From contig PLXT01000115.1 of assembly GCA_003151535.1 (NCBI GenBank), positions 33,941 through 97,940 on the forward strand: DNA of 64,000 bases, given 5' to 3'. The notes below the pieces were generated by a model. It saw nothing but the letters and a program-made list of their open reading frames with translations, ran no database searches and was not told the origin of the DNA. A program made the position numbers and the translations under genes. Position 1 is the stretch's first letter; every line of letters begins with the position of its first letter. This DNA is from Methanobacterium sp. GTDB lineage: Archaea; Methanobacteriota; Methanobacteria; Methanobacteriales; Methanobacteriaceae. Below are positions 8,055-62,181 of this stretch, piece after piece.

Positions 8055-8854
8055 TTATTTATTTTTAAAAATTTCAAACCACCTTGTTTTTAATAAGGAA
8101 ACATATATATCTGGTGAAAGCCCATATGGACCTATACTCCACATATCCTGAGCTTCTATCAATTCAGTAGTACGCTTAACGCCAAATGTTCCACCTATTG
8201 TGTATGTCTGACGTGTTACAGCAAAATCCAATGAATAAGCATAAGGTGCTGATCTGAAATCCGAAATCGCGCTTTCTATAATTTCTATTTTTGGAAAAAT
8301 AGTATGATCACCTTGATAGTGTTTAATTCCTACCAATTCTCCTTTCTTCACAAAGCATCGATATTCACTCAGCATGTCTACTACTTCAGAAGTCATTACG
8401 ATCATATCTTGATCCAAAGGCTTGTTATCATATGTAGTATTAAACAACTCCTTTCGTGAAGAAGCGTTTCTTATTACACCAGAAGGAAACCCCTTGAACT
8501 TAGAATGTGGTTTCACAAAAACTGGAAGTGTAGTTTCTTTCTTAAACTCACTCAACGGCTTATACTCAAAACTTCTATGGACATAGCTTTCTAATTCTCT
8601 CGGAATATCTATTGGTGTTGGAACTTCAATCCCACAATTAGAAAGAAATCGAGATGTTTCTTCAACATATGCAATAACAATTGGTGGGTGACCTTCCGCA
8701 TCTTTGTTTGTGGTATTTCATCTATATTTTCTCCTTCAAAAAAGAATATGTCACTCCCTAATTGAGAAAACCCATAAAACGCAGTGGACATAATATCGCT
8801 AGGAAATTGCTTTCCATATGATGCTGTCTTTTCTTGTTGAATATAAACTCGCAT
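8055..8854 (-). CDS. ATP-grasp family enzyme (RimK/glutathione-synthetase-like), apparently interrupted by a frameshift (ORFs 8609..8854 and 8055..8555)
   Basis: motifs LPVFVKPHSKFKGFPSGV and EYRCFVKKGELVGI; the upstream ORF continues in another frame with about 100 nt where both frames are open (8612-8715); the 8055..8555 ORF starts at TTG only because of the break. Confidence 0.45.
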
Positions 8855-11646: not shown

Positions 11647-13251
11647 TTAGGATGCTAATTTTTTCAAGGCTTTATTTAGCTCTCCATGTGACAAACCTTG
11701 TGAAGTTTTGATTTGTATAAATTCTTCTGGGAAATACTCGTAATCATCATAAGCGTTATCATCCAGAATAACGAAGTTTCGTGGCCTGCCATTCCTTTCA
11801 AACCATGTGTTGATTTGCTCAGCTCTCAATTTTTTATCAATATTTATAGTTTTACCCATAATATTACCTGTAACACCAGCATCGCGTAATAAGGTTTTTA
11901 GTTCCTTGAACTTCATTTGATTTTTGCAATCAGATATAATTACAATACTAGCCTTGGTGCGATCTGTGAGTTGATTCAAATTGTTTATACAATCTTTATC
12001 CCAGCCATAGTTGCAATCATGATGTCCATTACTAGCATTTCGAATGTCCGTTATAAGAACACCATGAATATCCAAAAATATAATGCTTTTTTGTGAATCT
12101 AATAGCTCATGATCTTTATGCTCGTAATCAAACTCTTTCAGTATTGTTTTTATTGAATTCAATATGCCACCCAGTTTATCATCTGAATTCACAATGTTCC
12201 AAGGAATATCCTCATGATGGGTTTCCTTTAAAAGCCTATCAATATATGGTGTAAGCTTATCCCAGTTTTCCAAAATATCTCCATCATTTTTGGAGAACTT
12301 CCAGTATCTTAACGGATCTCTCTTCCTTAATTCAAATCTAACCTTTTGTTTGGCTTTATCGATATCCAGCCACATCTTAACGAGAAGAATGCCATTCTTT
12401 AATAGATTCCTTTCCCAATCACATACACTACCCATAAACGCCTCATATTGCTCTGTATCACAATAGCCCATAGCTGGTTCAATAACACCACGATTATACC
12501 ATGATCTATCAAAGAAGACTAATTCACCTTCTTTGGGTAATGCTTTCTCGTATCTCATGAACCAATTCTTCTTTTCCTCTGGAGTGGGTACACCAAACGT
12601 TTCAACACGATAATGCTTGGGATTTAAGAATTCAGTAACGCTTTGAATATTACTACCCTTACCTGCAGCATCACGACCTTCAAATATTACCAACACCTTT
12701 TTATTAGTCTTTACTACCCACTCTTGAAGCTTTAATAGCTCAATTTGGAGGTAATACTTTTCTTTTAAAAACTTATTGTAGGTTATCTTATCTGTGTCAT
12801 CATTAACACTATTGATAATTTCGTACTTTTTATCGGTCTTTATCCTTTCCTTGTACTTTTCAACAATACTCTTAATATTGCTTCGGACCTCTAATAGATA
12901 ATGAGTAACGGCCTTTTCTTGGTCATGGCCGTTAAAAAGCTTTTTAAGGAGCTTTATAAGCCCCAATTCTTTTAGAAGGCTTTCATCGTATTCTGCTTTA
13001 AGATCTAATATAGCCTTCCTTAACGCCTCTGGCGAGGGTTTATCGTACTTGAAGTGGACGAGGGAATCAATTAGCTTATTAGCGAAGAAATTTAGCTTAT
13101 ATTTATACTTGACAGTGTAGCGCAGATTAATCAGCAGATCTTTAACGTTTTCAACTACATCATCCAGTATTGTATCCTTCTGAGTAAAGTAGTTTTCGTT
13201 TAATAATCTTCTTCTTAGTTTCTGAGCCAATAAGCCTTTGATAGAATTCAT
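11647..13251 (-). CDS. polyphosphate kinase 2 (PPK2) family enzyme fused to a C-terminal HAD-like (DxDG) domain, with about 190-aa helical N-terminal extension
   Basis: PPK2 Walker A FEGRDAAGKGS plus downstream PPK2 lid region (FFDRSWYNRG); C-terminal IIFLDIHGVLITD...ILDDNAY HAD-type motifs. Confidence 0.7.
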   Translation of the reverse strand: MNSIKGLLAQKLRRRLLNENYFTQKDTILDDVVENVKDLLINLRYTVKYKYKLNFFANKLIDSLVHFKYDKPSPEALRKAILDLKAEYDESLLKELGLIKLLKKLFNGHDQEKAVTHYLLEVRSNIKSIVEKYKERIKTDKKYEIINSVNDDTDKITYNKFLKEKYYLQIELLKLQEWVVKTNKKVLVIFEGRDAAGKGSNIQSVTEFLNPKHYRVETFGVPTPEEKKNWFMRYEKALPKEGELVFFDRSWYNRGVIEPAMGYCDTEQYEAFMGSVCDWERNLLKNGILLVKMWLDIDKAKQKVRFELRKRDPLRYWKFSKNDGDILENWDKLTPYIDRLLKETHHEDIPWNIVNSDDKLGGILNSIKTILKEFDYEHKDHELLDSQKSIIFLDIHGVLITDIRNASNGHHDCNYGWDKDCINNLNQLTDRTKASIVIISDCKNQMKFKELKTLLRDAGVTGNIMGKTINIDKKLRAEQINTWFERNGRPRNFVILDDNAYDDYEYFPEEFIQIKTSQGLSHGELNKALKKLAS

Positions 13252-25781: not shown

Positions 25782-26300
25782 CTATAACTCGTTAGAGTTA
25801 AGTATTTTACCGTTATTTAAAATTTTTTTTGCTTGAAAAACATTTCCCATTGTTAGTCCTACAAATCTATCAATCAAAAGGAAATTATTCCTTTGCCAAT
25901 ATAACATATCAGAATCATCATCCAATATGACATATTCAGTGAATTGATAATAGGGACCGACCAACGCTTCATTATCTTTAACCCAAGTTAATATCTCATT
26001 GCCTCTAAGACAATTATCACTACGTAAATTTGGTGTGATATCCAATATTTCTCCTTTGAATTTGTGAAATTCAAGTGCGTTTCTGCACTGCTCAATACCA
26101 TCACTTCTCCATGTTGAAGAAATTACAATCTTTGCTTGGGTGTCCTTGCACAAGGAGTTTAGATTTTGAACGCATTCTGGATCAATTTGCGAAAATCTAT
26201 GTGGTAAATTATCGAATGTTTTGTTCTTTTTTATATGGCGTTCTTTATAAAATCTTTCATGATTTAAGACACCATCGATATCCAGAAATATTATCTTCAT
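25782..26300 (-). CDS. HAD-superfamily phosphatase (172 aa)
   Basis: motif I IIFLDIDGVLN, motif II ISSTWR, motif IV ILDDDSD. Confidence 0.55.
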   Translation of the reverse strand: MKIIFLDIDGVLNHERFYKERHIKKNKTFDNLPHRFSQIDPECVQNLNSLCKDTQAKIVISSTWRSDGIEQCRNALEFHKFKGEILDITPNLRSDNCLRGNEILTWVKDNEALVGPYYQFTEYVILDDDSDMLYWQRNNFLLIDRFVGLTMGNVFQAKKILNNGKILNSNEL

Positions 26301-28515: not shown

Positions 28516-29316
28516 TTATTTATTTTCTGGTATTCTATTATCTAAAAATGTTTTTTCTTGTGTGAAAATAGGGCACTCAACACTGACCCACTTATTTCTA
28601 ACTGTATCAGTTAATGCTATTTCTTGATTTGGTATATCTCTTACATCCTGTCCATTCACAAAGGTGATCCTTTCGATAAACCCACCTCTTTTCTTCCTAG
28701 CTGGATAATCATTCCAATTAATGCCTTTCTGAAAAATTAATTCTTGTTTTGCCTCAGAATTAACTCCATGTAATTCTTTGTGAGGATATAAGGATTGGGC
28801 AACGCTGGAAATACTATTCCTAGTACAATCTTGCTGCCGCCAAATAAAATAGTTACTAACCTCAACCCTTTGAGGGATAATAAAAATACGAGCATCGAAC
28901 ATGGCTAGTTTTGGCTTTTGGACATATCTATTATCGAAAGCGTCTCGTGTTAAAAACCTTTGGCTTCTTAGTTCATTAAAAATGGCTGTTGCCGTGGATG
29001 CAGCTACGCTAACCATTTTTTGTACGTTGTTATCAAACCATGCTTGGGTTCCAATAGCATCGAAATCAGTTAACAATATACTGATTTCATCTGATTGAAC
29101 ATATGCAAATTTAGCACCGCTTAAATTCTTACATAAATACTTAGCAGTTTCATCCATGTCTTGAATAAGATCATTATCAAAAGGTCTATCCAAGCCTTTA
29201 GTCCACGTATGAAAGGATTTTCCGTCAATTCTCAGGATTGCATATGTCCTTCTAGGTAATTTAATCCTATAAGCTGTTTCATATTCCTTAATTCTATCAC
29301 CTAATGAATCTTTCAT
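28516..29316 (-). CDS. tRNA-His guanylyltransferase (Thg1)-like protein
   Basis: YAILRIDGKSFHTWTKGLDRPFD and AKFAYVQSDEISILLT match the Thg1 catalytic core. Confidence 0.75.
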   Translation of the reverse strand: MKDSLGDRIKEYETAYRIKLPRRTYAILRIDGKSFHTWTKGLDRPFDNDLIQDMDETAKYLCKNLSGAKFAYVQSDEISILLTDFDAIGTQAWFDNNVQKMVSVAASTATAIFNELRSQRFLTRDAFDNRYVQKPKLAMFDARIFIIPQRVEVSNYFIWRQQDCTRNSISSVAQSLYPHKELHGVNSEAKQELIFQKGINWNDYPARKKRGGFIERITFVNGQDVRDIPNQEIALTDTVRNKWVSVECPIFTQEKTFLDNRIPENK

Positions 29317-31518: not shown

Positions 31519-32433
31519 ATGGAAAAAACGTATTATACTCTTTATCAAATAACGAATAAATTAAATGGTATGATTTATATTGGGTCTCACAAAACAACTA
31601 ATATTAATGACGGATACTATGGATCTGGAAAGAATATAAAAAAGATGATAAAAGAATTAGGAAAAGATAGTTTTGAGAAGAAAATTTTGACATATTACGA
31701 TACTAATGAGGAAATGTTAATTGCCGAAAAAATAATGGTTAATAGGGAATTTATAGAAAGGAACGACACGTATAATCTTATTATAGGAGGTGGTTGTAAT
31801 AGTGCTGATACTGTTTTAGTTAAAAATGATCAAGGTAAACATTTTAGAGTTCATAAAAATGACCCAGATTATTTATCTGGTAAATTAATAACCCCAAATA
31901 AAGGAAAAATGATGTTTAAAGATTCAAACGGTAAATATTATAGGCTAGATAAGAATGATCCGATTATCATATCTGAAAACCTAATTCCAGCTGGTAAAGG
32001 TAAAACATTAGTTTTTAATGAAACTAATAATAAAATTTGGGTCTCTGTAGACAATCCAAAATTCATTGATGGAACATATAAACACATCACAAAGGGAATT
32101 GCTAGAAAAAAAGAATCTAATATAAGATTAAGTGAAACAAGAAAGAAGAATAATCTTGCCAAAGGAGTGAACAATCCTAACTATGAAAAAACATTCATTT
32201 ATAATAAAAATTCTAACGAAATAAAAACTATAAAAAAAGAAACATTAAATTATTGGTTAAATATAGGGTGGGTGATTGGAAGACCTATTGAAAAACGTAA
32301 CAACCAGAACGGAACTAGATGGTTGACAAATGAAAAACTAAAATTAAATAAACAAATAAAATTTGACGAAATAAGCACTTTTTTAAATATAGGGTGGGAA
32401 ATAGGAAGGGTTTTCTATAAAAAAGCCTCTTAG
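31519..32433 (+). CDS. free-standing GIY-YIG homing endonuclease with C-terminal repeated NIGW DNA-binding modules
   Basis: YYTLYQITNKLNGMIYIGSHKT...YYGSGK (GIY-YIG); repeats YWLNIGWVIGRP and FLNIGWEIGRV; one of only three plus-strand genes. Confidence 0.75.
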   Translation: MEKTYYTLYQITNKLNGMIYIGSHKTTNINDGYYGSGKNIKKMIKELGKDSFEKKILTYYDTNEEMLIAEKIMVNREFIERNDTYNLIIGGGCNSADTVLVKNDQGKHFRVHKNDPDYLSGKLITPNKGKMMFKDSNGKYYRLDKNDPIIISENLIPAGKGKTLVFNETNNKIWVSVDNPKFIDGTYKHITKGIARKKESNIRLSETRKKNNLAKGVNNPNYEKTFIYNKNSNEIKTIKKETLNYWLNIGWVIGRPIEKRNNQNGTRWLTNEKLKLNKQIKFDEISTFLNIGWEIGRVFYKKAS

Positions 32434-37141: not shown

Positions 37142-37792
37142 TTATAAATAAAATGATATAGGCTTATTTCTATATCTGTAGCTCTCTCCCAAGGAGCTAG
37201 CATTAACAAAGGTAGTACCATCCATAATTTTAGTCCCATAACTATGATGAACATGGCCACAGACGTGATATCTTGGCTTAACTTCTACAATTTTCTTATA
37301 TAATTCCTCACAGCCAACCCTTAGTCCAGCGTAAGTGTTATCCAGTATGCCATATAGTGGTCCGTGGGTCATAACTATATCCATACCTTGTGGTATAGTC
37401 TCCCATTTCTTTGCAATGGCGGCTCCCCTGTCCACATTAAACGCCCAATCATTAAATCTAGGCTGCCAAGGGCTACCGTATATCTTTATACCATTCAATT
37501 CAACCATTTTATCCATAAGATACACAATACCCATATCCTGGAACATTGGTGCGATCTCATGGTTATCCTCAAACGCCCAATCGTGATTACCAGCAATGAA
37601 GCATTTATAGCGACATTTTAAATTGCCAAACCAAGTTAAAAAGCTTACAATTTCCTTTGTTTTACCCTGCATAGTAATATCTCCAGCATGTAAAACTATT
37701 GTATTTTCATAATCCGTTATGAGAGAGGCTAAGTCTTTTGATAACTCATAATGTCGATTATGGGTGTCACTAATAGTAATTATTTTTATCAC
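37142..37792 (-). CDS. calcineurin-like metallophosphoesterase
   Basis: DTH, GD, GNHD and GH motifs (ISDTHNRH, AGDITMQG, AGNHDWAFE, CGHVHH). Confidence 0.6.
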   Translation of the reverse strand: MIKIITISDTHNRHYELSKDLASLITDYENTIVLHAGDITMQGKTKEIVSFLTWFGNLKCRYKCFIAGNHDWAFEDNHEIAPMFQDMGIVYLMDKMVELNGIKIYGSPWQPRFNDWAFNVDRGAAIAKKWETIPQGMDIVMTHGPLYGILDNTYAGLRVGCEELYKKIVEVKPRYHVCGHVHHSYGTKIMDGTTFVNASSLGESYRYRNKPISFYL

Positions 37793-39693
37793 ATCGCAAT
37801 CATTAAATTGATATTTTTACGTTCAATATCAACGCTGGTTACTTGGACAAGAACTTCATCGCCCAATCGTATAACACGCCCAGTATTATGTCCTTTCACA
37901 CAGTAGTGCTTCAGGTCAGTTATATAAGTATCCCCTTGTATTTCGCTAACTCTTACCATACCATCAACCTTGTTTTCAATCAATTCGACGAATACACCAT
38001 ATTCTGTAATGCTTGTTATTATACCCTTATATAAGAACCCAATTCTTTGACTCATATACACACTCTGCATATATTTAATACTCTCCCGTTCAGCCTTTTG
38101 CGCTTTGAGTTCACAATTGCTTAAGTATAAAGCCCAATGTTCCAATTGTTCAATACTGGGTGTGGGCTTTTGGGTTAAAAATCTATTTAAGAGTCTGTGT
38201 ACTATAATATCAGGATATCTTCTAATGGGGCTTGTAAAATGAGCATAATCTTCAAACCCCAATCCATAATGCCCCATATTTTTTGTAGTATAAAAAGCTT
38301 TTTGCATTGTTCTAACAACCAAATTAGAAACTAGATTTTCTTCAGTCTTACCCTTAACATCCACCAATAATTTATTCAAAGATTTTGCAATTTCTTGAGG
38401 AGAGGTTATCCTAATGTCATAATCAAACTCTTTTATAAATTTTTTCAAATCTAAAAGCTTTTCAGTGCTTGGTTCTTCGTGAACCCTACTGATAACAGGA
38501 TAGCTGTTATTTTTTAAAATACGTGCAACGGCTTTATTAGCCAAAAGCATAAATTCTTCAATCAACTTATTAGCATCTTTACTAGTCTTGAATATTATAT
38601 CAGTAGGCTTACCATCTACTAATTTAAATCTTATTTCATCTTTATCGAACGTTAGAGAACCATCTTTTAACCTATCCTTCCTTAACTTATTCGCTAGAAC
38701 ATTCAAGTCGATAATACACTTATCAGTACCATATACACTTGAATTATCTTCAATAACCATTTGTGCTCCTTCATACGTATACCTATGATTGGAATGGATA
38801 ATTGTCTTGCCAAACCACTCATGTAGAATATTAGCATCTTTATCCATTGTAAATATAACCGAGAAACACAACTTATCTTCATACGGCCTTAAGCTACATA
38901 GTTCATTGGATAGCCTCTCTGGTAACATAGGGACAACACGATCCACTAAATACACGCTAGTACCTCTGCGATAAGCCTCTTTATCTAAATCAGTGTCTGA
39001 TTTTAGATAATGCGATACATCAGCGATATGTACGCCAACTTGTATATTTCCATCAGCCCATTCCACAGATAATGCATCGTCAAAATCTTTAGCGTCTTCA
39101 GGATCAATTGTAAATGTTGTAACATTACGCATGTCTTTACGGCTTAAAATTTCATCTTCCGTTATTTCGGCAGATATAGATTTTGCTTCAGCCAAAACAT
39201 CATATTCGAAATTATACGGTAAACCATATTCATGTAGTATTGAATGAATTTCAGCATCATTATTGCCAGCATCCCCCAAAACCTGTATAACTTGTCCGTG
39301 TGGATTTTTACTATTTTTAGCCCAGTATTTTATCCTAACAATAGCTTTTTGACCATCTTTAGCTTTATTTAATTCGTTTAAAGGAATAAAAATATCCACG
39401 AGCAATTTATTACTATCAGGAATTAAATATGCACCAGTGGAAACCATGTTAATTGTACCAACATAGTCTTTTTTTGTCCTCCCAACTATTTTTGTAACAA
39501 CACCCTCTATATTTCTCCCGCCACCTTTAACTATAAGCACTTTAACAAGATCCAGATGTAATGCGTGATTAGTATTAGCTTTACTGATATATATCTCTTT
39601 AGGTAGCTTATCACTCTGAAGATAAGCGCTACCACTGGAATTAAAATTAATCGTACCTTTCAAAACATCTCCAATATTAATCATGTCGCCCAC
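37789..39693 (-). CDS. RNase R / RNase II-family 3'-5' exoribonuclease (RNB domain plus C-terminal S1 domain)
   Basis: RNB catalytic motif DPEDAKDFDDALS, cold-shock-like N-terminus, S1-like C-terminus (GIITSITEYGVFVEL). Confidence 0.8.
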   Translation of the reverse strand: MGDMINIGDVLKGTINFNSSGSAYLQSDKLPKEIYISKANTNHALHLDLVKVLIVKGGGRNIEGVVTKIVGRTKKDYVGTINMVSTGAYLIPDSNKLLVDIFIPLNELNKAKDGQKAIVRIKYWAKNSKNPHGQVIQVLGDAGNNDAEIHSILHEYGLPYNFEYDVLAEAKSISAEITEDEILSRKDMRNVTTFTIDPEDAKDFDDALSVEWADGNIQVGVHIADVSHYLKSDTDLDKEAYRRGTSVYLVDRVVPMLPERLSNELCSLRPYEDKLCFSVIFTMDKDANILHEWFGKTIIHSNHRYTYEGAQMVIEDNSSVYGTDKCIIDLNVLANKLRKDRLKDGSLTFDKDEIRFKLVDGKPTDIIFKTSKDANKLIEEFMLLANKAVARILKNNSYPVISRVHEEPSTEKLLDLKKFIKEFDYDIRITSPQEIAKSLNKLLVDVKGKTEENLVSNLVVRTMQKAFYTTKNMGHYGLGFEDYAHFTSPIRRYPDIIVHRLLNRFLTQKPTPSIEQLEHWALYLSNCELKAQKAERESIKYMQSVYMSQRIGFLYKGIITSITEYGVFVELIENKVDGMVRVSEIQGDTYITDLKHYCVKGHNTGRVIRLGDEVLVQVTSVDIERKNINLMIAM

Positions 39694-40198
39694 TTTTTAT
39701 TTCTGTTATATCAAAGGCGATATCCTTCGATGCACCCCAAACTTTAAATTCGGCAATGTGTAGTTCACGGTCTTCAAACATGTGAATAGTTTCAATCTTT
39801 GGGCACTTACTAATTAACCCTTCTAAATAATTTAATTTAACTTTCAATGTCTCTCCACCAGTGTTATACAAATATGTATCAAAAGTTAGATCGTAATGCT
39901 CTAATAATTTTTCAACCTCTGGAGACAATTTTTTTAGTCTCCCAGTCATCATTACCATAAGAGTATTTGGAGCATCCTTTTCTTTTATATAAGCAGCTAT
40001 TGTCTCTGGGATGACTGGCATTTCAAACATGTTAAAATCCAAACTCTGGGCGATTGACCACCACCCCTTGTGAGGCCATTTTTTTCCTGTTTTTTCCTCA
40101 TACTCTTTGCGGCCAATAGCAGGCATTGGCGTGTCGATGAGTGTCCCATCTAGATCAAATATCGCCAACCTATCTATTTTATTTAATTCCTTACCCAT
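39677..40198 (-). CDS. HAD-superfamily hydrolase (173 aa)
   Basis: motif I LAIFDLDGTLIDT. Confidence 0.5.
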   Translation of the reverse strand: MGKELNKIDRLAIFDLDGTLIDTPMPAIGRKEYEEKTGKKWPHKGWWSIAQSLDFNMFEMPVIPETIAAYIKEKDAPNTLMVMMTGRLKKLSPEVEKLLEHYDLTFDTYLYNTGGETLKVKLNYLEGLISKCPKIETIHMFEDRELHIAEFKVWGASKDIAFDITEIKSGRHD

Positions 40199-44451: not shown

Positions 44452-44925
44452 CTATTTTCCTTCTTTAATTAGATCCTCACGTACCTTTGTGACTATTTCA
44501 CCCAACCAATTTGTTCCTTGCCATTGGCTTTTATCTTGGATTCTACTATCGGTTTCACCTAAACCAATACCCCAAATTTTATCAACAGGAGAAGCTTCAA
44601 CCAGTTCGGTACCAATAGTTTCCATAAGACTATTATAGAAACTTTTATTTTGCGTGAACTTTGCATAATTACCCTTATACACAATGTCCTTACAAACTGC
44701 TTCCCATTTCTCTTTATTAAACCCACGGATTTGGCGACCAAGTGCTTTCTGTTCTGCTGGATTTTTCGTTGCCAGTATTTTTTTGAATATCTCACGGTCT
44801 TCAAAAAGCAAAGCCTTTTGTGCCATCATGAATTGTTCCGCTGTTCCATAACCAATGCCGTCAACAACGAAACTTGAACGAGCCCATTGACTGAACGGAC
44901 CACCGTAGAAAAATGTGTATTTCAT
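44452..44925 (-). CDS. NADAR/YbiA-family (DUF1768) protein, putative ADP-ribose/N-glycoside hydrolase
   Basis: FFYGGPFSQWARSSF...DGIGYGTAEQFMMAQKA...W.G.N.LG pattern of the YbiA/NADAR family. Confidence 0.6.
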   Translation of the reverse strand: MKYTFFYGGPFSQWARSSFVVDGIGYGTAEQFMMAQKALLFEDREIFKKILATKNPAEQKALGRQIRGFNKEKWEAVCKDIVYKGNYAKFTQNKSFYNSLMETIGTELVEASPVDKIWGIGLGETDSRIQDKSQWQGTNWLGEIVTKVREDLIKEGK

Positions 44926-47534: not shown

Positions 47535-48086
47535 TTACTGTAGATTATAATTTTTCTTAGTACCATCCGATTTAGAATATATAAAATTTTTAATTTCAGG
47601 ATTGGTTAGCTTCACACCTGAAAATTCCTTGATGTATTTCTTCGCTGTACCCTTCTTCAGATAGGCTATCGTACAATGTGGATGATAATTAGGAAACTGA
47701 CAAGTATGTGGTAATTTCTTGAAGAGTTTATTTAATTTGACTAAATCAGAACTCTCAATATCAAATTTTAAGACATCGAAATCATCATTAGTAAAAGAAG
47801 TAATGCTACCAAACTCAATAAGAGGCTCCTTAATCGTTTCAATTAAGTCTTCAACATCCTTGTCAGGTACATCGGTGTGAATACCGTATAATACTGTTAT
47901 GTGTGGGTTCATCTCACGACCAGCACCAGTTTCATAAGCGCTTATATCCTCATCAGATATTTTACTTTGAAACTCTTTCCATTCGTCCGAATCAACTTTA
48001 AGGATAACAGCTACATTATTGTAATCATACACCCTTTTGGCTTCTAATAAAGCTTGTCTTAATTTATCCTTTAGATTCATCTTCAT
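47535..48086 (-). CDS. hypothetical protein (183 aa)
   Basis: ORF only. Confidence 0.45.
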   Translation of the reverse strand: MKMNLKDKLRQALLEAKRVYDYNNVAVILKVDSDEWKEFQSKISDEDISAYETGAGREMNPHITVLYGIHTDVPDKDVEDLIETIKEPLIEFGSITSFTNDDFDVLKFDIESSDLVKLNKLFKKLPHTCQFPNYHPHCTIAYLKKGTAKKYIKEFSGVKLTNPEIKNFIYSKSDGTKKNYNLQ

Positions 48087-49205: not shown

Positions 49206-49231
49206 ATTTTCTTCAAAGAACTAATTATCGG

Positions 49232-49319
49232 TCCCCCCGACAGGATTCGAACCTGTGATGGTGATTTCTCACATCTGATTAAAAGTCAGGACCGTTCGGC
49301 CAACTACGGATACGAGGGG
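49232..49319 (-). tRNA. type-II (long variable arm) tRNA with atypical anticodon loop CUUUUAA (formal anticodon UUU)
   Basis: acceptor CCCCTCG/CGGGGGG, T-loop GGTTCGAATCC, variable-arm hairpin GTGA-GAAA-TCAC, discriminator A; Leu/Ser/Tyr-like architecture does not fit the anticodon. Confidence 0.45.
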
Positions 49320-50139: not shown

Positions 50140-50144
50140 ATATG

Positions 50145-50233
50145 TCAGGATGACAGGGCTCGAACCTGCATAAGATTTTTAAGGTCCATTCTCCGTTCCA
50201 AGCGGAGTCGTCTTCCATTGACTACACATCCTG
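50145..50233 (-). tRNA. atypical 89-nt tRNA (anticodon loop CUUGGAA, formal UGG) with 21-nt variable region lacking a clear hairpin
   Basis: perfect acceptor CAGGATG/CATCCTG, T-loop GGTTCGAGCC, anticodon stem CTCCG/CGGAG; 3-bp D-stem. Confidence 0.4.
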
Positions 50234-53816: not shown

Positions 53817-54452
53817 TTATATTTTAACTTGTTTCATTTCTTGATTATATGACTCGGGGTCTTTATTCCTCAATCTTTCAAACCAATCATTTGTTTTTAT
53901 CTTACAGTAGTATAACTGACTGGTTTTTTTTGTTTGAACGGTTCCCTTGCAGATCACACCTTCGCTCAATCCAAACTCATTTTCTTTTACACGGCTAACA
54001 AACTCTTTATTTAAATTACCATTGTAGACTACTCTAGGAATACCAGCTTCACCAAAATTATTCATAAACTCTTTTGGCGCTATTAAACCTTTTTTATATC
54101 TAGAAATATCAAATAAGGTAATATCAAACGTATCGTTTATAAAATCATGCTGCCCAAAAGAAGATCTAATACCCAGCAATTCTGCGAAACACACAAACGA
54201 TAATGAATCACGATATTCTTTAGATTTGAATATTCGAGTTAACTTCTCTTCGTACTTGTCCTTGAATAGTTTAATTGCAAAGCCCCATGTCTCATGGTTC
54301 TCATCAATCATCATATTTCTCGTACCGAATTTATAAAACCCTCTTTTAGGGGAGTATTCCACCCTTATGTTTGATCCATCTAGCTTATCAAACGCAACAA
54401 TGGGGATACCCCAGTTATCCCCATAATAATCTATAGTATTATATGCTTTCAT
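53817..54452 (-). CDS. RNA ligase, Rnl2-like nucleotidyltransferase domain (211 aa)
   Basis: motif I KLDGSN (lysine adenylyltransferase KxDG) near the N-terminus and downstream Rnl2-like conservation. Confidence 0.55.
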   Translation of the reverse strand: MKAYNTIDYYGDNWGIPIVAFDKLDGSNIRVEYSPKRGFYKFGTRNMMIDENHETWGFAIKLFKDKYEEKLTRIFKSKEYRDSLSFVCFAELLGIRSSFGQHDFINDTFDITLFDISRYKKGLIAPKEFMNNFGEAGIPRVVYNGNLNKEFVSRVKENEFGLSEGVICKGTVQTKKTSQLYYCKIKTNDWFERLRNKDPESYNQEMKQVKI

Positions 54453-58277: not shown

Positions 58278-59099
58278 TTAATTAAAATAATCTTCCAAGG
58301 AGCCGATTAATTTAACCATGTTGCAATTATAAAACCCAGCACTATTAATATTATTAATTTCAATAATTTTTAATTCATCATTGGCTAAACAAATATCCAT
58401 TACAAATGCTTCGGCTGGTTTATACTTATCAACCATTTTTTGAGCAAAGTCAATAAAAAATAGCTCATCGTCATAGTTCTTATAAACAATACGTGAACCA
58501 ATTTTATAAGAACTAGCTGTAACAACTTTACCACCAACAACCCAGCATCTTATCTCTTGTTGAATGTCTTTAACTGGGCTCACCAATACTTTTGTTTCTT
58601 CAGAAATTACCTTAACAAGATCGTTATCATTGCATAGTTTAATATAATCACCCCATTGTTTTTTAGAAAAAACAGTTCCAGAAAATACTTTACTATCTAA
58701 TGTTGGTCTAGAAAAAAAATGTTCATCGTCAAAGGGAATGGGATCAGTAAGATTAATTATATACCCATCACCATTTAACATATTTTCAAGACCATATTTT
58801 GACGCATAGATATTAAAATCATGATTTTCATTCAGCATCGAGCCTGGCTTCCAATTTCTCTTTGTAGCAGCAACTGACATTCCAACAGCACCAAAACAAA
58901 AAACATTATTATGAGTTGTTTCGTAAACTTTCAATACATGCTCTTTAGATGTGTCAGCTGAATCATACCATTCATAGATGTCCTCTGCAAAGGGGAGATA
59001 TTTCACTATATCATATTCAAACTTGAAACGATTCATTATATCTAACAGAAGTTCATAATGATGCTCCTTAAAAAGATTTTCTTGTATGACGTAAAACAT
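58278..59099 (-). CDS. ATP-grasp family enzyme (start trimmed to MFYVIQENLF...), paralogue of 8055..8854
   Basis: EIRCWVVGGKVVTASS matches the RimK-type ATP-grasp motif; the ORF-track N-terminus overlaps tRNA-Leu. Confidence 0.55.
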   Translation of the reverse strand: MFYVIQENLFKEHHYELLLDIMNRFKFEYDIVKYLPFAEDIYEWYDSADTSKEHVLKVYETTHNNVFCFGAVGMSVAATKRNWKPGSMLNENHDFNIYASKYGLENMLNGDGYIINLTDPIPFDDEHFFSRPTLDSKVFSGTVFSKKQWGDYIKLCNDNDLVKVISEETKVLVSPVKDIQQEIRCWVVGGKVVTASSYKIGSRIVYKNYDDELFFIDFAQKMVDKYKPAEAFVMDICLANDELKIIEINNINSAGFYNCNMVKLIGSLEDYFN

Positions 59100-59111
59100 A
59101 ATATTATTTTG

Positions 59112-59195
59112 TAGCCGCGAAAGGACTCGAACCTTCACGCTTTTAAGGGCGGCAGATTTTGAGTCTGCAGTGGCTACCAATTACACCACGCGGCC
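59112..59195 (-). tRNA. tRNA-Leu (anticodon CAA), type II
   Basis: 84 nt; acceptor GGCCGCG/CGCGGCT, D-loop AATTGGTAG, anticodon stem GCAGA/TCTGC, loop CTCAAAA, long variable arm. Confidence 0.55.
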
Positions 59196-59396: not shown

Positions 59397-59398
59397 AG

Positions 59399-59480
59399 TG
59401 ACCCTGACAAGCATCGAACTTGCATGCCTTGCGGCCTCCGTTTCTAGGACGGAGCTGTATCCCAATTCCAGCACAGGGCC
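59399..59480 (-). tRNA. tRNA-Leu (anticodon TAG), type II
   Basis: acceptor GGCCCTG/CAGGGTC, anticodon stem TCCGT/ACGGA with loop CCTAGAA (C33), variable-arm hairpin GCC-GCAA-GGC. Confidence 0.45.
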
Positions 59481-59484
59481 ATTG

Positions 59485-59608
59485 AGAAGGAAGCAGGTGT
59501 CGAACCTGCACAAGAACTAAGCGGCTAGCCCATTGCTGGGTTCAGGATGATAGTTACTCCCTCTTTTAACCGTCCACTGCGTGTACCAATTCCGCCATTC
59601 CTTCCTTC
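59485..59608 (-). ncRNA. 124-nt tRNA-like RNA: perfect 7-bp acceptor (GAAGGAA/TTCCTTC) and canonical T-arm enclosing a large non-canonical insert (intron-containing or aberrant tRNA, unassigned)
   Basis: T-arm GCAGG-TTCGACA-CCTGC; D-loop-like AATTGGTA near the 5' end; no canonical anticodon arm; packed 4 nt and 2 nt from neighbouring tRNA ends. Confidence 0.35.
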
Positions 59609-59610
59609 AG

Positions 59611-59722
59611 TAGGGCGAGAGGGAGTCGAACCCTCACGGGCATTTCTGCCCAATAGATTAACGGAGCGACGAATAGAAGACCCCGTTAAGTCTATCTCGG
59701 CTACCAATTACGACACCGCCCC
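59611..59722 (-). ncRNA. 112-nt tRNA-like RNA (Leu-like type II features; anticodon stem ATAGA/TCTAT enclosing a 13-nt loop CTTAACGGGGTCT and an extra 21-nt segment)
   Basis: acceptor GGGGCGG/TCGCCCT, D-loop AATTGGTAG, variable-arm hairpin GGGCA-GAAA-TGCCC, T-arm GAGGG-TTCGACT-CCCTC; too long for a standard tRNA. Confidence 0.35.
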
Positions 59723-59724
59723 AT

Positions 59725-60006
59725 TTACCAAATAATTTCTTGGTATGTATAGTTTCTAGAAGTATACTTCGTTATTTTAAACTTCAATGGTTTTTTCATC
59801 CATTGTTTTTTATTTTTAGAAACTAACTTCCAACTTGGATATTTAATATCCGCTTTACCGTTATATTCAGCTATACGGTAATAATTTTGTTTTTCTCTCT
59901 TAGAACATTTTATACAACATCCTGTAACACATTTAATGTGTAGAATGTTATGTGTTCTTCTGTGTGTGGTTTCATTTATAAAACCACGTTGTGTGTCTTT
60001 TCCCAT
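59725..60006 (-). CDS. Cys-containing basic protein (93 aa)
   Basis: ORF only. Confidence 0.35.
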   Translation of the reverse strand: MGKDTQRGFINETTHRRTHNILHIKCVTGCCIKCSKREKQNYYRIAEYNGKADIKYPSWKLVSKNKKQWMKKPLKFKITKYTSRNYTYQEIIW

Positions 60007-60316: not shown

Positions 60317-60388
60317 AATTTTTAGTAGTCCCTGAGAATTCTGAGATCTCGACCCTCGCCATGTAAAGACGATGCTCTTCCTCTGAGC
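60317..60388 (-). tRNA. tRNA-Val (anticodon TAC) with non-canonical T-loop
   Basis: acceptor GGTCCCT/AGGGACT, D-arm GCTC-AGAGGAA-GAGC, anticodon stem TCGTC/GGCGA, loop TTTACAT; T-loop CTCAGAA lacks TTCGA. Confidence 0.4.
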
Positions 60389-60405
60389 TAAGGGACCATA
60401 TTATT

Positions 60406-61539: not shown

Positions 61540-61895
61540 ATTTATTTTCATAATATATCAATTAGTTTGTCCTGATGTTTCTATAGATGCTATCACTGAT
61601 AATTTTCATAATATCTCAATTAGTTTGTCATGATATCACCCTGATGTTATTATAGATGTTATTCTCGATGATATTACTGATGTTAATACTGATGTTAATA
61701 CAGGTATTAGCCCTGATGTTATTATAGATGTTATTCTCGATGTTAATACTGATGTTATTACTGATGTTAATACAGGTATTAGCCCTGATGTTATTCCAGA
61801 TGTTATTAGTGATGTTATCCCTGATGTTATCACTGATGTTATTCCAGATGTTATCACTGATAATTTTCATAATATCTCAATTACTTTACCGTAAA
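61540..61895. repeat. 12-bp tandem repeat array (about 19 units of NNtgatgttaNN with about 72-bp higher-order periodicity) flanked by three copies of an about 30-bp repeat (tgataattttcataatatctcaattagtttg)
   Basis: direct reading; the period is a multiple of 3 and is translated as tetrapeptide repeats. Confidence 0.85.
61628..61870 (-). CDS. tetrapeptide-repeat protein (NNIx)n encoded by the 12-bp repeat array (alternative frame gives (ITSG)n)
   Basis: ORF begins 4 nt inside the end of 61867..62181; which frame is expressed is unresolved. Confidence 0.3.
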   Translation of the reverse strand: MKIISDNIWNNISDNIRDNITNNIWNNIRANTCINISNNISINIENNIYNNIRANTCINISINISNIIENNIYNNIRVIS

Positions 61896-62181
61896 CTTGT
61901 TTTGTCCAACCATTAATGTGGCCTTTATTATTACCAATCTGACAACCCTTCACATCATTCTTAGCTTTAACCAAATGTGTAAAAAAACGTCCTCGACATT
62001 TACAATACACGATGTCACCTACCTCAACTTGTTCCCAAGTAGCTGGTGCCAACTTATGATCTTGTCCAGATTTTATAAGCGGCACCATTGAATTACCCTT
62101 CTCACTAGTAACAATGGTTTCTCCATTATTGAGCTTCTCTAATTTCCAATTCATGTTCAAACTTATTTTGAATATTATCAT
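61867..62181 (-). CDS. S24/S26-type peptidase-fold protein (LexA/UmuD/signal-peptidase-like, 104 aa)
   Basis: GNSMVPLIKSGQ (Ser nucleophile region) and VGDIVYCKCRGRFFTHLVKAK (Lys region). Confidence 0.45.
   Translation of the reverse strand: MIIFKISLNMNWKLEKLNNGETIVTSEKGNSMVPLIKSGQDHKLAPATWEQVEVGDIVYCKCRGRFFTHLVKAKNDVKGCQIGNNKGHINGWTKQVYGKVIEIL

What the first reader, a model, noticed from the sequence alone, without database searches (positions are those of the whole stretch)
59485..59722. Two tandem over-long tRNA-like RNAs (124 and 112 nt) with perfect acceptor/T-arms and large internal insertions
Both are packed 2-4 nt from neighbouring tRNA ends, as in processed tRNA arrays. Both have 7-bp acceptor stems whose 5' strands lie about 110-125 nt from the 3' strands, canonical T-arms (GGTTCGACNCC) and Leu-like D-loops (AATTGGTA). 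Neither has a standard 17-nt anticodon arm. In the 112-nt RNA a 5-bp stem ATAGA/TCTAT encloses CTTAACGGGGTCT (UAA-Leu-like CUUAA plus a 6-nt insert), followed by an extra 21 nt and a variable-arm hairpin. These could be tRNAs with small introns, which are very unusual in bacteria and phages, or tRNA-derived structured RNAs or decoys. The small spurious ORFs 59525..59707 and 59547..59735 overlap them.
Basis: seen in the sequence. Interest (0 to 1): 0.6.

Follow-up and report, generated by a model that had tools for sequence, protein, structure and literature searches.

The report
Interrupted leucine tRNA genes in phage
Two neighbouring tRNA-like genes in a huge phage genome carry extra sequence where the anticodon loop should be: one is a leucine tRNA gene split by a conserved 26-base hairpin that recurs in other phages and fits no known tRNA-intron type, and the other is an aberrant Leu-tRNA-like gene of unknown use.

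Summary
Element A (59722..59611, 112 nt) and element B (59604..59485, 120 nt, not 124) have perfect acceptor stems, T arms and Leu-type D arms. Standard ARAGORN and Rfam at gathering threshold miss both.

A is a tRNA-Leu(UAA) gene carrying a 26-nt insert directly after the anticodon. Removing it restores the loop CUUAAAA found in uninterrupted tRNA-Leu(UAA) genes of other phage contigs. I found three more phage tRNA-Leu(UAA) genes interrupted at the same site (26, 26 and 45 nt). Their anticodon-loop bases never vary, while the insert's base pairs change in a compensating way.

The insert extends the anticodon stem into one long helix. There is no bulge-helix-bulge, and 26 nt is too short for a group I intron. 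The inferred cuts are offset by 2 bp, which is the geometry RNase III leaves (inference). An RNA ligase and end-healing enzymes lie nearby. No endonuclease was identified, and splicing is not shown.

B resembles Leu-tRNA genes in its 5' half but has U73 and a weak anticodon stem. No single excision gives a canonical tRNA, and no clear homologue was found, so its role is unresolved.

Phage tRNA introns are already known from Lak megaphages. This short, conserved hairpin type appears undescribed.

The parts
59611..59722 (-). Element A: tRNA-Leu(UAA) gene interrupted by a 26-nt insert (112 nt, discriminator A at 59611)
   Evidence: Sequence. ARAGORN intron mode. 26-nt excision gives tRNA-Leu(taa). 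Covariance model 130.7 bits (self-match). Homologues.
59660..59685 (-). A: the 26-nt insert CGGGGUCUUCUAUUCGUCGCUCCGUU, lying between A36 (59686) and A37 (59659)
   Evidence: Its removal gives the loop CUUAAAA, as in uninterrupted Leu(UAA) genes. Insert base +1 covaries with -3, so +1 is not nucleotide 37. Hairpin z = -4.08 against shuffles.
59686..59695 (-). A: 5' strand of the anticodon stem AUAGA (59695-59691), unpaired C32 (59690), and U33 plus anticodon UAA (59689-59686)
   Evidence: Sequence. Invariant C-UUAA in all four interrupted genes.
59653..59659 (-). A: A37 A38 (59659-59658) and the 3' strand of the anticodon stem UCUAU (59657-59653)
   Evidence: Sequence. Pairs counted.
59636..59652 (-). 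A: variable region U-GGGCAGAAAUGCCC-GU (type II long arm)
   Evidence: Sequence. Identical arm in L157 and covarying arm in L162.
59485..59604 (-). Element B: 120-nt Leu-tRNA-like RNA gene with discriminator U and no canonical anticodon arm
   Evidence: Sequence. ARAGORN intron mode. Model R1 38.4 bits, E 2.4e-9. Strict scan.
59520..59578 (-). B: candidate anticodon-stem equivalent AGUGG (59578-59574) / CCGCU (59524-59520), enclosing 49 nt
   Evidence: GUGG/CCGC is the pairing in the model alignment; the fifth pair A59578-U59520 is my extension. A rival register (UGG-A-CGGUUA / UAGCCG-C-UUA) is almost isoenergetic: -33.3 vs -32.9 kcal/mol.
59544..59562 (-). B: inner hairpin H1, AGGG-AGUAACUAUCA-UCCU
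   Evidence: Present in both constrained folds. It resembles the stem CAGGA/UCCUG of L157 (my reading).
59529..59540 (-). B: inner hairpin H2, CCCA-GCAA-UGGG, which looks like a variable arm
   Evidence: Present in all folds.
59398..59480 (-). Neighbour: tRNA-Leu(UAG), 4 nt downstream of B
   Evidence: ARAGORN.
59111..59195 (-). Neighbour: tRNA-Leu(CAA)
   Evidence: ARAGORN and Rfam 48.9 bits.
53817..54452 (-). Candidate sealing enzyme: RNA ligase (PF09414, 211 aa)
   Evidence: Pfam E 3.4e-9. PHROG 548 'RNA ligase'. A link to A or B is inferred only.
47535..48086 (-). 2H phosphoesterase (2'-5' RNA ligase superfamily, also matches Acb1), a possible end-healing enzyme
   Evidence: Pfam. A similar gene lies about 1 kb from the tRNA cluster of L162. 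A link is inferred only.

Best explanation
A is a phage tRNA-Leu(UAA) gene interrupted by a 26-nt intervening sequence inserted exactly between the third anticodon base (A36) and A37.

In the transcript, U33 and U34 pair with A38 and A37. A35 and A36 pair with the last two insert bases (UU). The insert then pairs with itself. Together these extend the anticodon stem into one irregular helix of about 16 pairs, with C32 bulged.

I propose that a protein endonuclease cuts both strands of this helix and that the halves are rejoined to give an 86-nt tRNA-Leu(UAA). That tRNA would read UUA, the phage's commonest leucine codon. The inferred cuts are offset by 2 bp and would leave 2-nt 3' overhangs, which is the geometry of RNase III. 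The joining enzyme could be the phage's ATP-dependent RNA ligase, either directly or after end healing.

This is a member of a small, conserved class of phage Leu(UAA) inserts. It is neither group I nor bulge-helix-bulge.

B, 6 nt downstream, is an aberrant member of the same Leu-tRNA gene lineage. Its acceptor stem, D arm and T arm are intact, but its anticodon arm and variable arm are degenerate. It most likely does not decode. It is either a stable tRNA-like RNA or a decaying copy.

Shown: the identity of A as an interrupted Leu(UAA) gene, the insert site, the conservation and the covariation.
Inferred: removal of the insert, the enzymes involved, and the role of B.
For: Identity of A:
- Cloverleaf parts read directly from the sequence.
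- Deleting exactly 26 nt gives a tRNA-Leu(taa) call with the loop CUUAAAA. The same loop occurs in uninterrupted Leu(UAA) genes of other phage contigs: L007:7210-7290, L036, L042, L053.

Homologues:
- L157:5928-6039 (insert 26 nt), L162:12502-12613 (26 nt) and L170:792-920 (45 nt) are interrupted at the same site.
- Rfam's tRNA model scores them 40.4, 44.3 and 44.2 bits, above its gathering score of 29.

Structure:
- 47 of 48 cells pair.
- The six variable pairs all show changes on both sides. Three of them are inside the insert: +1/-3 C-G or U-A, +2/-4 G-C, A-U or C-G, +3/-5 G-C, C-G or U-A.
- 0 of 500 shuffles reach the observed covariation score, and shifted registers collapse to 19-40% paired.
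- RNAalifold independently predicts the same helix, plus further covarying pairs inside the insert.
- The hairpin is far more stable than shuffles, z = -4.08.

Selection pattern:
- C32, UUAA and AA are invariant while the adjacent insert pairs covary.
- Between A and L157 the exons differ at about 15% of positions, mostly in compensating pairs. The insert differs at about 46% (my count).

Need for the tRNA:
- UUA makes up 38% of Leu codons.
- No other Leu(UAA) gene is present in the window.

Machinery in the window:
- RNA ligase
- 2H phosphoesterase
- three HAD 'Swiss army knife' RNA-repair domains, one fused to a PPK2 kinase
- Thg1-like enzyme
- RNase II/R

Geometry:
- The 2-bp offset follows from the sequences once the mature loop is taken to be CUUAAAA.
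- RNase III's 2-nt 3' overhangs, with 5'-phosphate and 3'-OH ends that ATP-dependent ligases can join, are established knowledge.

B:
- Model R1 scores it 38.4 bits, comparable with the genuine tRNA-Leu(UAG) at 36.0.
- Its 5' half (UGGCGGAAUUGGUACACGCAGUGGAC..UUAA) closely matches that of L170.
- Its middle is no more stable than shuffles, z = +0.31.
Against: - No RNA data: splicing is not shown.
- No RNase III, EndA or RtcB gene was seen among the window's 48 ORFs of 150 aa or more. The rest of the roughly 348-kb genome could not be read.
- RNA-repair genes are common in jumbo phages regardless of introns (PMC7824862), so their presence is weak evidence.
- In L157 and L162 the helix above the 5' cut is only 3 bp before an internal loop. 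This is short for a classical RNase III substrate.
- Related genes (L160/L161/L165) keep a UUAA/UUAA helix but, read as Leu(UAA), lack a good mature anticodon stem. ARAGORN offers a Leu(UAG) reading with a weak stem. This hints that the helix itself, rather than the spliced tRNA, may be what is maintained.
- Only four sequences support the covariation.
- Rfam's tRNA model does not reach its gathering score on A itself.
- For B there is no clear homologue, no covariation and no canonical product.
Confidence: 0.5

Rival explanations
1. Neither RNA is spliced. Both are stable tRNA-like RNAs that keep the acceptor, T and D arms, so RNase P, RNase Z and the CCA-adding enzyme can process them. A might even be charged by LeuRS, which does not read the anticodon. 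The anticodon end is replaced by a long helix (A) or a branched insert (B). They would act as decoys or sponges for tRNA-targeting host defences, as donors of leucine outside the ribosome, or as scaffolds that carry a small structured RNA.
For: - The arms that give a tRNA its L shape are intact in both.
- A has A73 and a Leu-type D arm and variable arm.
- L160/161/165 keep the UUAA/UUAA helix but, read as Leu(UAA), have no good mature anticodon stem.
- B and L007:6152-6282 share the stem AGUG...CGCU, U73 and a variable loop of about 10 nt, although their other stems differ in sequence.
- No splicing endonuclease was found.
- L157 carries a type-I-bodied tRNA(UAA) next to its interrupted gene, so decoding may not depend on the interrupted gene there.
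Against: - The strict invariance of C32-U33-UAA-A37-A38, identical to the functional anticodon loops of uninterrupted genes, is not required by a merely structural helix. Neighbouring pairs covary freely.
- The insert evolves about three times faster than the exons.
- A is the only Leu(UAA) gene seen in the window, and L162's interrupted gene is the only one in its tRNA set.
- B's insert is no more structured than chance.
Confidence: 0.25
2. They are dead genes: tRNA-Leu copies disabled by small insertions or rearrangements, for example scars left by mobile elements or homing endonucleases in a tRNA cluster. They would be kept only because they are recent.
For: - B has a weak anticodon stem, no variable arm at the normal place, a GG insertion before UUAA, U73 instead of A73, and an unstructured middle.
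- Homing-endonuclease-like genes are common around these tRNA clusters: GIY-YIG at 31519-32433, T5orf172 in L006 and L007, GIY-YIG/NUMOD3 in L157.
- The three contigs that contain the window's sequence are 100% identical here, so they say nothing about constraint.
Against: - For A: the same site, the same 26-nt length and compensatory changes recur in phages as different as the window phage and a phage with T4-type replication genes (family B DNA polymerase and clamp loader, L162).
- All cloverleaf stems are intact in all four genes.
- For B: all 15 acceptor, D-stem and T-stem pairs are intact.
Confidence: 0.12
3. The inserts are classical tRNA introns: archaeal/eukaryal bulge-helix-bulge introns cut by an EndA-type endonuclease, or remnants of the group I intron known from tRNA-Leu(UAA) of cyanobacteria and plastids.
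For: - As in classical introns, the insert lies next to the anticodon and pairs with it.
- tRNA-Leu(UAA) is the classic host of a bacterial group I intron (established knowledge).
Against: - There are no 3-nt bulges. The helix is continuous apart from C32.
- The site is 36/37, not 37/38 and not 34/35.
- 26 nt cannot hold a group I core.
- No group I or other ribozyme family was reported in the window or in L015, L154, L157, L162, L170.
- No EndA-like domain appeared in the Pfam scans.
Confidence: 0.03

Closest known systems
tRNA introns of Lak megaphages (Devoto et al. 2019, PMC6784885)
   Same: Both are phage tRNA genes that standard bacterial tRNA finders miss. Both are interrupted in the anticodon loop by non-group-I sequence that is highly conserved between samples, and in both the removal mechanism is unknown ('enigmatic'). 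Lak-like loci recovered here (L154/163/164/171, and L205 from a Prevotella MAG) carry their insert after the same CUUAA of a Leu(UAA)-type gene.
   Different: The one Lak insert I read in the paper's supplement (Tyr GTA) is 93 nt, and one Lak intron is reported to contain a tRNA-like unit. The inserts in the Lak-like loci recovered here are 90-99 nt. Here the insert is a 26-nt hairpin with a defined helix, covariation and a fixed 36/37 site. The phage has 33% GC and appears to use the standard code, whereas Lak phages have about 26% GC and use code 15.
Archaeal/eukaryal protein-spliced tRNA introns (bulge-helix-bulge, EndA/Sen plus ligase)
   Same: Both are short. In both the anticodon pairs with the intron, and both need an endonuclease and a ligase.
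   Different: There is no bulge-helix-bulge. The position is 36/37 rather than 37/38. The cut offset would be 2 bp within a continuous helix. No EndA homologue was seen.
Group I intron of tRNA-Leu(UAA) in cyanobacteria and plastids
   Same: Same tRNA species, and also in the anticodon loop.
   Different: The group I intron lies between U34 and A35, is over 200 nt long and splices itself. Here the insert is 26-45 nt with no catalytic core, and Rfam reported no group I match.
Intervening sequences of bacterial 23S rRNA excised by RNase III (established knowledge)
   Same: Both are extra hairpins removed by cuts in the helix at their base. This is the closest analogue for the proposed cutting step.
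   Different: The rRNA fragments are not rejoined. A tRNA anticodon loop would have to be religated to function.
Phage T4 tRNA repair (PrrC cut, Pnkp healing, Rnl1 sealing) and jumbo-phage RNA-repair modules (PMC7824862)
   Same: Both involve breakage and resealing of a tRNA anticodon loop by phage-encoded enzymes. The window encodes such a module.
   Different: In T4 the break is inflicted by a host defence on an intact tRNA. Here the proposed cuts remove an encoded insert.
Phage T4 stable RNAs C and D (species 1 and 2) in the tRNA cluster (from my own memory, not checked)
   Same: They are RNAs of about 120-140 nt of unknown function, encoded among phage tRNA genes. This is a possible analogue for B.
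   Different: The one literature search I tried on them returned nothing relevant.

Membership tests
tRNA (Rfam RF00005 / cloverleaf) | Score at or above the curated gathering score (29 bits) | tested here: inconclusive
   A and B are not reported at gathering threshold. With permissive settings the best clan member is tRNA-Sec, at 27.9 and 18 bits. A's homologues L157, L162 and L170 score 40.4-44.3 bits on RF00005.
tRNA (Rfam RF00005 / cloverleaf) | 7-bp acceptor stem, U8, D arm with G18 G19, T arm with UUCRA loop, discriminator | tested here: met
   Read directly for A and B. Chance expectation 0-0.03 per window.
tRNA (Rfam RF00005 / cloverleaf) | 5-bp anticodon stem closing a 7-nt loop with U33 and a purine at 37 | tested here: not met
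   Not met in the primary sequence of either element. For A it is met after removing 26 nt. For B no single excision gives it (plus my manual enumeration of stems and loops).
tRNA-Leu (bacterial type II) | Long variable arm, 3-bp D stem with a Leu-type D loop, A73, Leu anticodon | tested here: met
   A has all four: UAA, A73 at 59611, variable arm GGGCAGAAAUGCCC (alignment). B does not: it has U73, no variable arm at the normal position and no anticodon.
Bulge-helix-bulge tRNA intron | Two 3-nt bulges carrying the splice sites, separated by a 4-bp helix | tested here: not met
   The single-sequence folds and the consensus fold of A, L157 and L162 show a helix interrupted below and between the inferred cut sites only by C32; internal loops lie further up inside the insert. 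L170 adds one C-A mismatch at +1/-3.
Bulge-helix-bulge tRNA intron | EndA/Sen-type splicing endonuclease encoded by the host or the element | not testable with these tools
   None appeared among the window ORFs scanned with Pfam. The host and the rest of the genome are not available.
Group I intron | Conserved catalytic core (P3-P8), length over 200 nt | tested here: not met
   The insert is 26 nt. No group I match was reported in the Rfam scans of the window or of the homologous loci.
tRNA-Sec | Rfam RF01852 gathering score (47 bits); 8/5 or 9/4 acceptor/T stems; 6-bp D stem | tested here: not met
   27.9 and 18 bits. The stems are 7/5 with a 3-bp D stem.
tmRNA | tRNA-like domain plus a tag reading frame | tested here: not met
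   ARAGORN reports no tmRNA, and there is no Rfam tmRNA hit in the window.
Phage tRNA introns of the Lak type | A phage tRNA gene with a non-self-splicing insert in the anticodon loop, conserved between genomes (an operational definition; no mechanism is known) | tested here: met
   A meets it. Removal of the insert has not been shown here. The Lak paper, in the parts I read, predicts its introns from sequence and presents no RNA evidence of removal (PMC6784885).
RNase III substrate | Double-stranded helix of roughly one to two turns, cut on both strands with a 2-nt 3' overhang | tested here: inconclusive
   The helix has about 16 pairs with internal loops. The inferred junctions are offset by exactly 2 bp in the 3'-overhang sense in all four genes. 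Cleavage itself cannot be tested.

The most novel reading that the evidence does not exclude
Phages use a third route of tRNA splicing that is neither self-splicing nor bulge-helix-bulge. A conserved short hairpin inserted at 36/37 of tRNA-Leu(UAA) turns the anticodon arm into a double-stranded helix. An RNase III-type enzyme cuts it with a 2-bp offset, and a phage RNA ligase reseals the loop. The supply of the tRNA for the phage's commonest leucine codon would then depend on phage-encoded or phage-controlled RNA processing. Benefits could include protection of the anticodon loop from host anticodon nucleases or of the gene from homing endonucleases, or control of timing. Relatives such as B would be tRNA-scaffolded RNAs that evolved from such genes.
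Probability: 0.3. Interest if true: 0.85.

Novelty: new variant of a known kind. Interest (0 to 1): 0.62.

Why it matters
Bacterial and phage tRNA genes are generally taken to be uninterrupted, apart from rare group I introns. The only report of other phage tRNA introns that my searches found (Lak megaphages) left them unexplained.

This locus led to a compact, alignable case:
- the same 26-nt hairpin at the same nucleotide of tRNA-Leu(UAA) in at least three phages (a fourth carries a 45-nt insert at that site), two of them clearly different kinds of phage
- compensatory base changes in the helix
- an unambiguous predicted junction

That makes the question of how phage tRNA introns are removed directly testable with a 112-nt transcript, RNase III, cell extracts and one recombinant ligase.

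It also matters for annotation. Standard tRNA finders skip these genes or assign wrong anticodons (Val, Asn, Ile, Lys), so phage tRNA repertoires and codon-usage arguments built on them are biased.

Tried and rejected
Searches that led nowhere:
- Near and distant BLAST of the region against 50,697 phage records gave no relevant match.
- Exact or gapped DNA patterns taken from A and B found nothing in IMG/VR.
- Synteny through the neighbouring 596-aa protein. Three contigs carry the identical region. The next relative is only 67% identical in that protein and its Leu cluster is arranged differently. It supplied the uninterrupted Leu(UAA) gene but no homologue of B.
- Two contig look-ups with window proteins found nothing.
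- A pattern built from the D-arm-to-stem junction shared by B and L007-long gave chance hits in coding DNA, plus one odd tRNA-like with an elongated anticodon stem (L141).
- A scan for A's insert stretch UUCUAUUCGUC found only L162 and an unrelated protein-coding gene.
- Pfam, PHROGs and PDB searches of the two small ORFs just upstream of A (93 and 71 aa) gave no significant match. The 93-aa protein also occurs in L157, next to that locus's interrupted gene, and in L010, where it does not adjoin any Leu tRNA, so it does not track the insert.
- Promoter and terminator scans were uninformative.
- Literature searches for short phage tRNA introns, RNase III-dependent tRNA splicing and the T4 stable RNAs returned nothing specific.

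Ideas rejected:
- The anticodons ARAGORN assigns in intron mode (Val aac and Asn gtt here; Ile tat and Lys ttt in the homologues). They come from forcing a canonical intron site.
- Enumerating all single deletions of 8-59 nt in B. ARAGORN 'finds' dozens of mutually inconsistent tRNAs, none with a good stem together with U33 and a purine at 37. Cutting B at the A-type junction (UUAA|...UU|AG) gives a 73-nt RNA with the loop GGUUAAA, which has G33. I do not accept that as a tRNA.
- The bulge-helix-bulge, group I, tRNA-Sec and tmRNA readings (see the membership tests).
Full report
WHAT IS THERE

The tRNA genes of this window lie on the minus strand. Read on that strand, the stretch 59722..59485 holds two tRNA-like genes placed head to tail.

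Element A runs 59722..59611 (112 nt):
GGGGCGG UG UCG-UAAUUGGUAGC-CGA G AUAGA C UUAA [CGGGGUCUUCUAUUCGUCGCUCCGUU] AA UCUAU U GGGCAGAAAUGCCC GU GAGGG-UUCGACU-CCCUC UCGCCCU A

Element B runs 59604..59485 (120 nt):
GAAGGAA UG GCG-GAAUUGGUACA-CGC AGUGG [49 nt] CCGCU UAGUUCUUGU GCAGG-UUCGACA-CCUGC UUCCUUC U

Only the register starting at 59604 leaves U8 G9 and a D stem. ARAGORN in intron mode and my covariance model both choose it.

B ends 4 nt before tRNA-Leu(UAG), which starts at 59480. A ends 6 nt before B.

Standard ARAGORN and Rfam at gathering threshold report neither element. With permissive settings the best match is tRNA-Sec, far below its cut-off. A strict scan for over-long tRNA-like genes finds exactly these two in the window. 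It finds 0 to 0.03 per window in randomised sequence.

ELEMENT A IS AN INTERRUPTED tRNA-Leu(UAA) GENE

Up to CUUAA, A aligns base for base with type II Leu tRNAs, including the two normal Leu genes next to it.

Deleting exactly 26 nt (59685..59660) gives an 86-nt sequence that ARAGORN calls tRNA-Leu(taa). Its anticodon loop is CUUAAAA. The same loop occurs in uninterrupted tRNA-Leu(UAA) genes of other phage contigs. One of these is L007:7210-7290, on the contig whose 596-aa marker protein is the closest found (67% identical). There the Leu(UAA) gene sits, as here, in a cluster with a DUF4031 gene and tRNA-Leu(CAA).

The whole RNA folds into a cloverleaf whose anticodon stem continues into the insert. 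The hairpin is much more stable than shuffles, z = -4.08.

UUA is the commonest leucine codon in the window's genes, at 38%. No other Leu(UAA) gene is present in the 64 kb.

HOMOLOGUES AND COVARIATION

I scanned the public collections for a Leu-type D loop, then CUUAA, then a T loop 45-75 nt further on. IMG/VR returned three more tRNA-Leu(UAA) genes interrupted at the same nucleotide:
- L157:5928-6039, insert 26 nt. Its acceptor stem, variable arm and T stem are identical to A's.
- L162:12502-12613, insert 26 nt. It shares the 11-nt stretch UUCUAUUCGUC with A's insert.
- L170:792-920, insert 45 nt.

L162 comes from a phage with T4-type replication genes (family B DNA polymerase and a clamp loader). 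The insert is therefore not confined to one lineage.

Among 185,579 bacterial and archaeal species genomes, the same pattern found only a Lak-like element in a Prevotella MAG (L205) plus ordinary Leu genes and chance matches.

Rfam's tRNA model scores the three homologues 40-44 bits, above its gathering score of 29.

The anatomy is the same in all four genes:
- C32 is unpaired.
- U33-A38 and U34-A37 pair.
- A35 and A36 pair with the last two insert bases (UU).
- The insert then pairs with itself.

On a trimmed alignment 47 of 48 cells pair. C32, UUAA, UU and AA never vary. All six variable pairs show changes on both sides, and three of them lie inside the insert:
- +1/-3: C-G, U-A, C-G, and C-A (a mismatch in L170)
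- +2/-4: G-C, G-C, A-U, C-G
- +3/-5: G-C, G-C, C-G, U-A

No shuffle out of 500 reaches the observed covariation score. Shifting the register by 1-3 columns drops pairing to 19-40%. RNAalifold predicts the same extended helix without guidance and adds covarying pairs further inside the insert (columns 44:56 and 47:53).

Two points fix the borders of the insert. First, base +1 varies (C or U) and covaries with -3, so it belongs to the helix and is not nucleotide 37. Second, only a 26-nt removal restores a 7-nt loop. The insert therefore lies between positions 36 and 37.

That TCTAT is part of the insert stretch UUCUAUUCGUC shared with L162. There it cannot pair with the stem CAAGA, and L157 has nothing equivalent.

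HOW IT MIGHT WORK (INFERENCE)

The loop bases are invariant while neighbouring pairs covary. The insert also changes about three times faster than the exons between A and L157 (my count). Both patterns are what one expects if the mature anticodon loop is under selection, that is, if the insert is removed.

A 26-nt sequence cannot splice itself. Rfam reports no intron or ribozyme family here or in the homologous loci. There is no bulge-helix-bulge.

Given the borders, the cuts fall as follows:
- The 5' cut is after A36.
- The 3' cut is after the U that pairs with A35.
- The two cuts are thus offset by 2 bp, and both products carry 2-nt 3' overhangs.

This is the signature of RNase III-family enzymes. 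Their 5'-phosphate and 3'-OH ends can be joined directly by ATP-dependent RNA ligases (established knowledge). The cut site would lie near the middle of an irregular helix of about 16 pairs.

The window is an island of RNA-repair and tRNA-maintenance genes:
- RNA ligase at 53817-54452
- 2H phosphoesterase at 47535-48086
- HAD 'Swiss army knife' phosphatases at 39677-40198 and 25782-26300
- a PPK2 kinase-HAD fusion at 11647-13251
- a Thg1-like enzyme at 28516-29316
- RNase II/R at 37789-39693

The phage could therefore seal the loop whichever kind of ends the cut leaves.

Against this: such modules are common in jumbo phages irrespective of introns (PMC7824862). No RNase III or EndA gene was seen in the 64 kb. 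In L157 and L162 the helix above the 5' cut is only 3 bp before an internal loop.

My rough estimates:
- Identity as an interrupted Leu(UAA) gene: about 0.95.
- Removal of the insert to give a working tRNA: about 0.55.
- The RNase III-like cut: about 0.3.

ELEMENT B

B has intact acceptor, D and T stems (15 of 15 pairs) and the bases needed for the tRNA elbow (G18 G19, UUCGA). It should therefore be folded and end-processed like a tRNA.

Its 5' half (UGGCGGAAUUGGUACACGCAGUGGAC..UUAA) is very close to that of L170's Leu(UAA) gene. It differs by a GG inserted before UUAA. On its 3' side it keeps UU|AG where the A-type genes have UU|AA. The A-type model scores it 38.4 bits (E 2.4e-9), comparable with the genuine tRNA-Leu(UAG) at 36.0.

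It nevertheless departs from a tRNA in several ways:
- The discriminator is U, not the A73 that LeuRS needs in E. coli (established knowledge).
- There is no variable arm at the normal place.
- The only anticodon-stem candidates are AGUGG/CCGCU (model register) and a shifted helix UGG-A-CGGUUA/UAGCCG-C-UUA. These are nearly isoenergetic, at -32.9 and -33.3 kcal/mol.
- The 49 nt in between contain two hairpins. AGGG...UCCU and CCCA-GCAA-UGGG look like the anticodon stem and variable arm of an L157-type Leu gene nested inside.
- As a whole the middle is no more stable than shuffles, z = +0.31.

No single excision gives a 5-bp stem with a 7-nt loop, U33 and a purine at 37 (and manual enumeration). 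No homologue was found by pattern or by synteny.

The nearest thing is L007:6152-6282. It shares U73, the AGUG...CGCU stem and a variable loop of about 10 nt ending in GU, but its interior is different.

I conclude that B is an aberrant member of the Leu-tRNA gene lineage. It is either a non-decoding tRNA-like RNA or a decaying copy, and I cannot decide between the two.

THE WIDER PICTURE

I collected 137 loci (1.9 Mb) through the 596-aa marker protein, mostly from relatives of this phage. They hold about 315 standard tRNA calls and about twenty distinct over-long tRNA-like genes. Examples:
- A 195-nt gene with a 120-nt insert, present in seven loci.
- 98-nt genes with two covarying hairpins.
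- 131-134-nt genes lying between two Val tRNAs.

Lak-like loci carry a 90-99-nt insert after the same CUUAA, and that insert itself contains a tRNA-like unit.

The only paper my searches found that reports non-group-I phage tRNA introns is the Lak megaphage study, which calls them enigmatic (PMC6784885). Further searches turned up no description of a short hairpin type or of a mechanism.

VERDICT

A is a new, well-defined variant of the poorly understood phage tRNA introns. It is conserved, supported by covariation, and has a testable cut-and-seal model.

B is unresolved.

Nothing here shows splicing. That needs RNA data.

Noticed in passing
window 49230-49319 (-) and 50144-50233 (-): tRNA-Lys(UUU) and tRNA-Pro(UGG) are 90 nt long and have long variable arms. 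This is a type II body on anticodons that normally sit on type I tRNAs. The Pro gene only just reaches the Rfam cut-off (29.9 bits).
   Followed up: partly
window 60326-60397 (-): A 72-nt tRNA found by Rfam (43.3 bits) but not by ARAGORN. Its anticodon loop is UUUACAU (UAC, Val) and its T loop CUCAGAA is unusual.
   Followed up: partly
window 11647-13251, 25782-26300, 28516-29316, 37789-39693, 39677-40198, 44452-44925, 47535-48086, 53817-54452 (all -): A dense island of RNA-repair and tRNA-maintenance genes interleaved with 20-odd tRNA genes: PPK2-HAD fusion, two HAD 'Swiss army knife' phosphatases, Thg1-like enzyme, RNase II/R, NADAR, 2H phosphoesterase and RNA ligase. NUDIX, NAPRTase, a weak Macro-domain match and a sigma-70 factor are also present.
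   Followed up: partly
window 3048-4358 (-): A TnpB/IS605 OrfB-type gene (OrfB_IS605, Cas12f1-like TNB, HTH) inside the phage genome.
   Followed up: no
window 8055-8555 (-) and 58278-59099 (-): Two ATP-grasp genes of the R2K clade. One lies directly downstream of tRNA-Leu(CAA).
   Followed up: no
L015:11904-12097; also L060, L061, L062, L063, L066, L098: A tRNA gene of about 195 nt with an insert of about 120 nt in the anticodon loop, conserved just downstream of the homologue of the 596-aa gene. GAU is repeated at both borders, so the mature anticodon could be UCA (opal suppressor) or GAU (Ile). The insert contains a hairpin with a T-loop-like UUCGAA and has no Rfam match.
   Followed up: partly
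L010:13163-13260 and L064:7590-7687: 98-nt tRNA-like genes with normal acceptor and T arms but two long internal hairpins that show compensatory changes between the two loci.
   Followed up: no
L007:6152-6282 and L157:4854-4987: 131-134-nt tRNA-like genes with Leu-type D arms and U73, lying between tRNA-Val(UAC) and tRNA-Val(GAC). The L007 copy shares the AGUG...CGCU stem with element B.
   Followed up: partly
L157:6055-6129 and 6143-6217; L007:8551-8625; L021:1427-2014; L016: Short (74-77 nt, type I body) tRNAs carrying leucine anticodons (UAA, CAA, AAG, UAG, CAG, GAG). Their amino-acid identity is unclear, because bacterial Leu tRNAs have long variable arms.
   Followed up: no
L013:21041-21112; L010:3810-4568: Related phages carry a tRNA(CUA) amber suppressor and split release-factor genes (PCRF, RF-1), which suggests stop-codon recoding. 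The window itself appears to use the standard code (stops TAA 28, TAG 8, TGA 4).
   Followed up: no
L154:3866-4049, L163, L164, L171; L205:1881-2055 (Prevotella MAG): Leu(UAA)-type genes of 175-184 nt with a 90-99-nt insert after CUUAA. The insert itself contains a D arm and T arm (a tRNA within a tRNA), as described for Lak megaphages.
   Followed up: partly
L160:10916-11040, L161:2191-2315, L165: 125-nt Leu-like genes that keep the UUAA/UUAA helix and show compensatory changes in the variable arm. Read as Leu(UAA) they lack a convincing mature anticodon stem; ARAGORN reads them as Leu(UAG) with the junction inside the anticodon and a weak stem.
   Followed up: partly
L006:180-509 compared with L004/L005: One of the three otherwise near-identical contigs carries an extra T5orf172 (GIY-YIG-like) gene next to the nucleoside deoxyribosyltransferase gene. 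This looks like a mobile endonuclease polymorphism near the tRNA cluster.
   Followed up: no
L162:13144-13599 (-): An RNase H-like (PF04308/DUF458) gene sits inside the tRNA cluster of the phage with T4-type replication genes that carries an A-type interrupted Leu gene. A 2H phosphoesterase lies about 1 kb from that cluster.
   Followed up: no
window 61628-61916: Overlapping ORFs on both strands across a low-complexity periodic stretch (translations such as NIWNNISDNIRDNITNNI...). This looks like a tandem repeat rather than genes.
   Followed up: no
L153:6104-6240, L168, L167: Ordinary tRNA-Leu(UAA) genes followed within about 15 nt by an isolated T arm plus acceptor 3' strand ending in CCA (a mini-helix-like tRNA fragment).
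   Followed up: no
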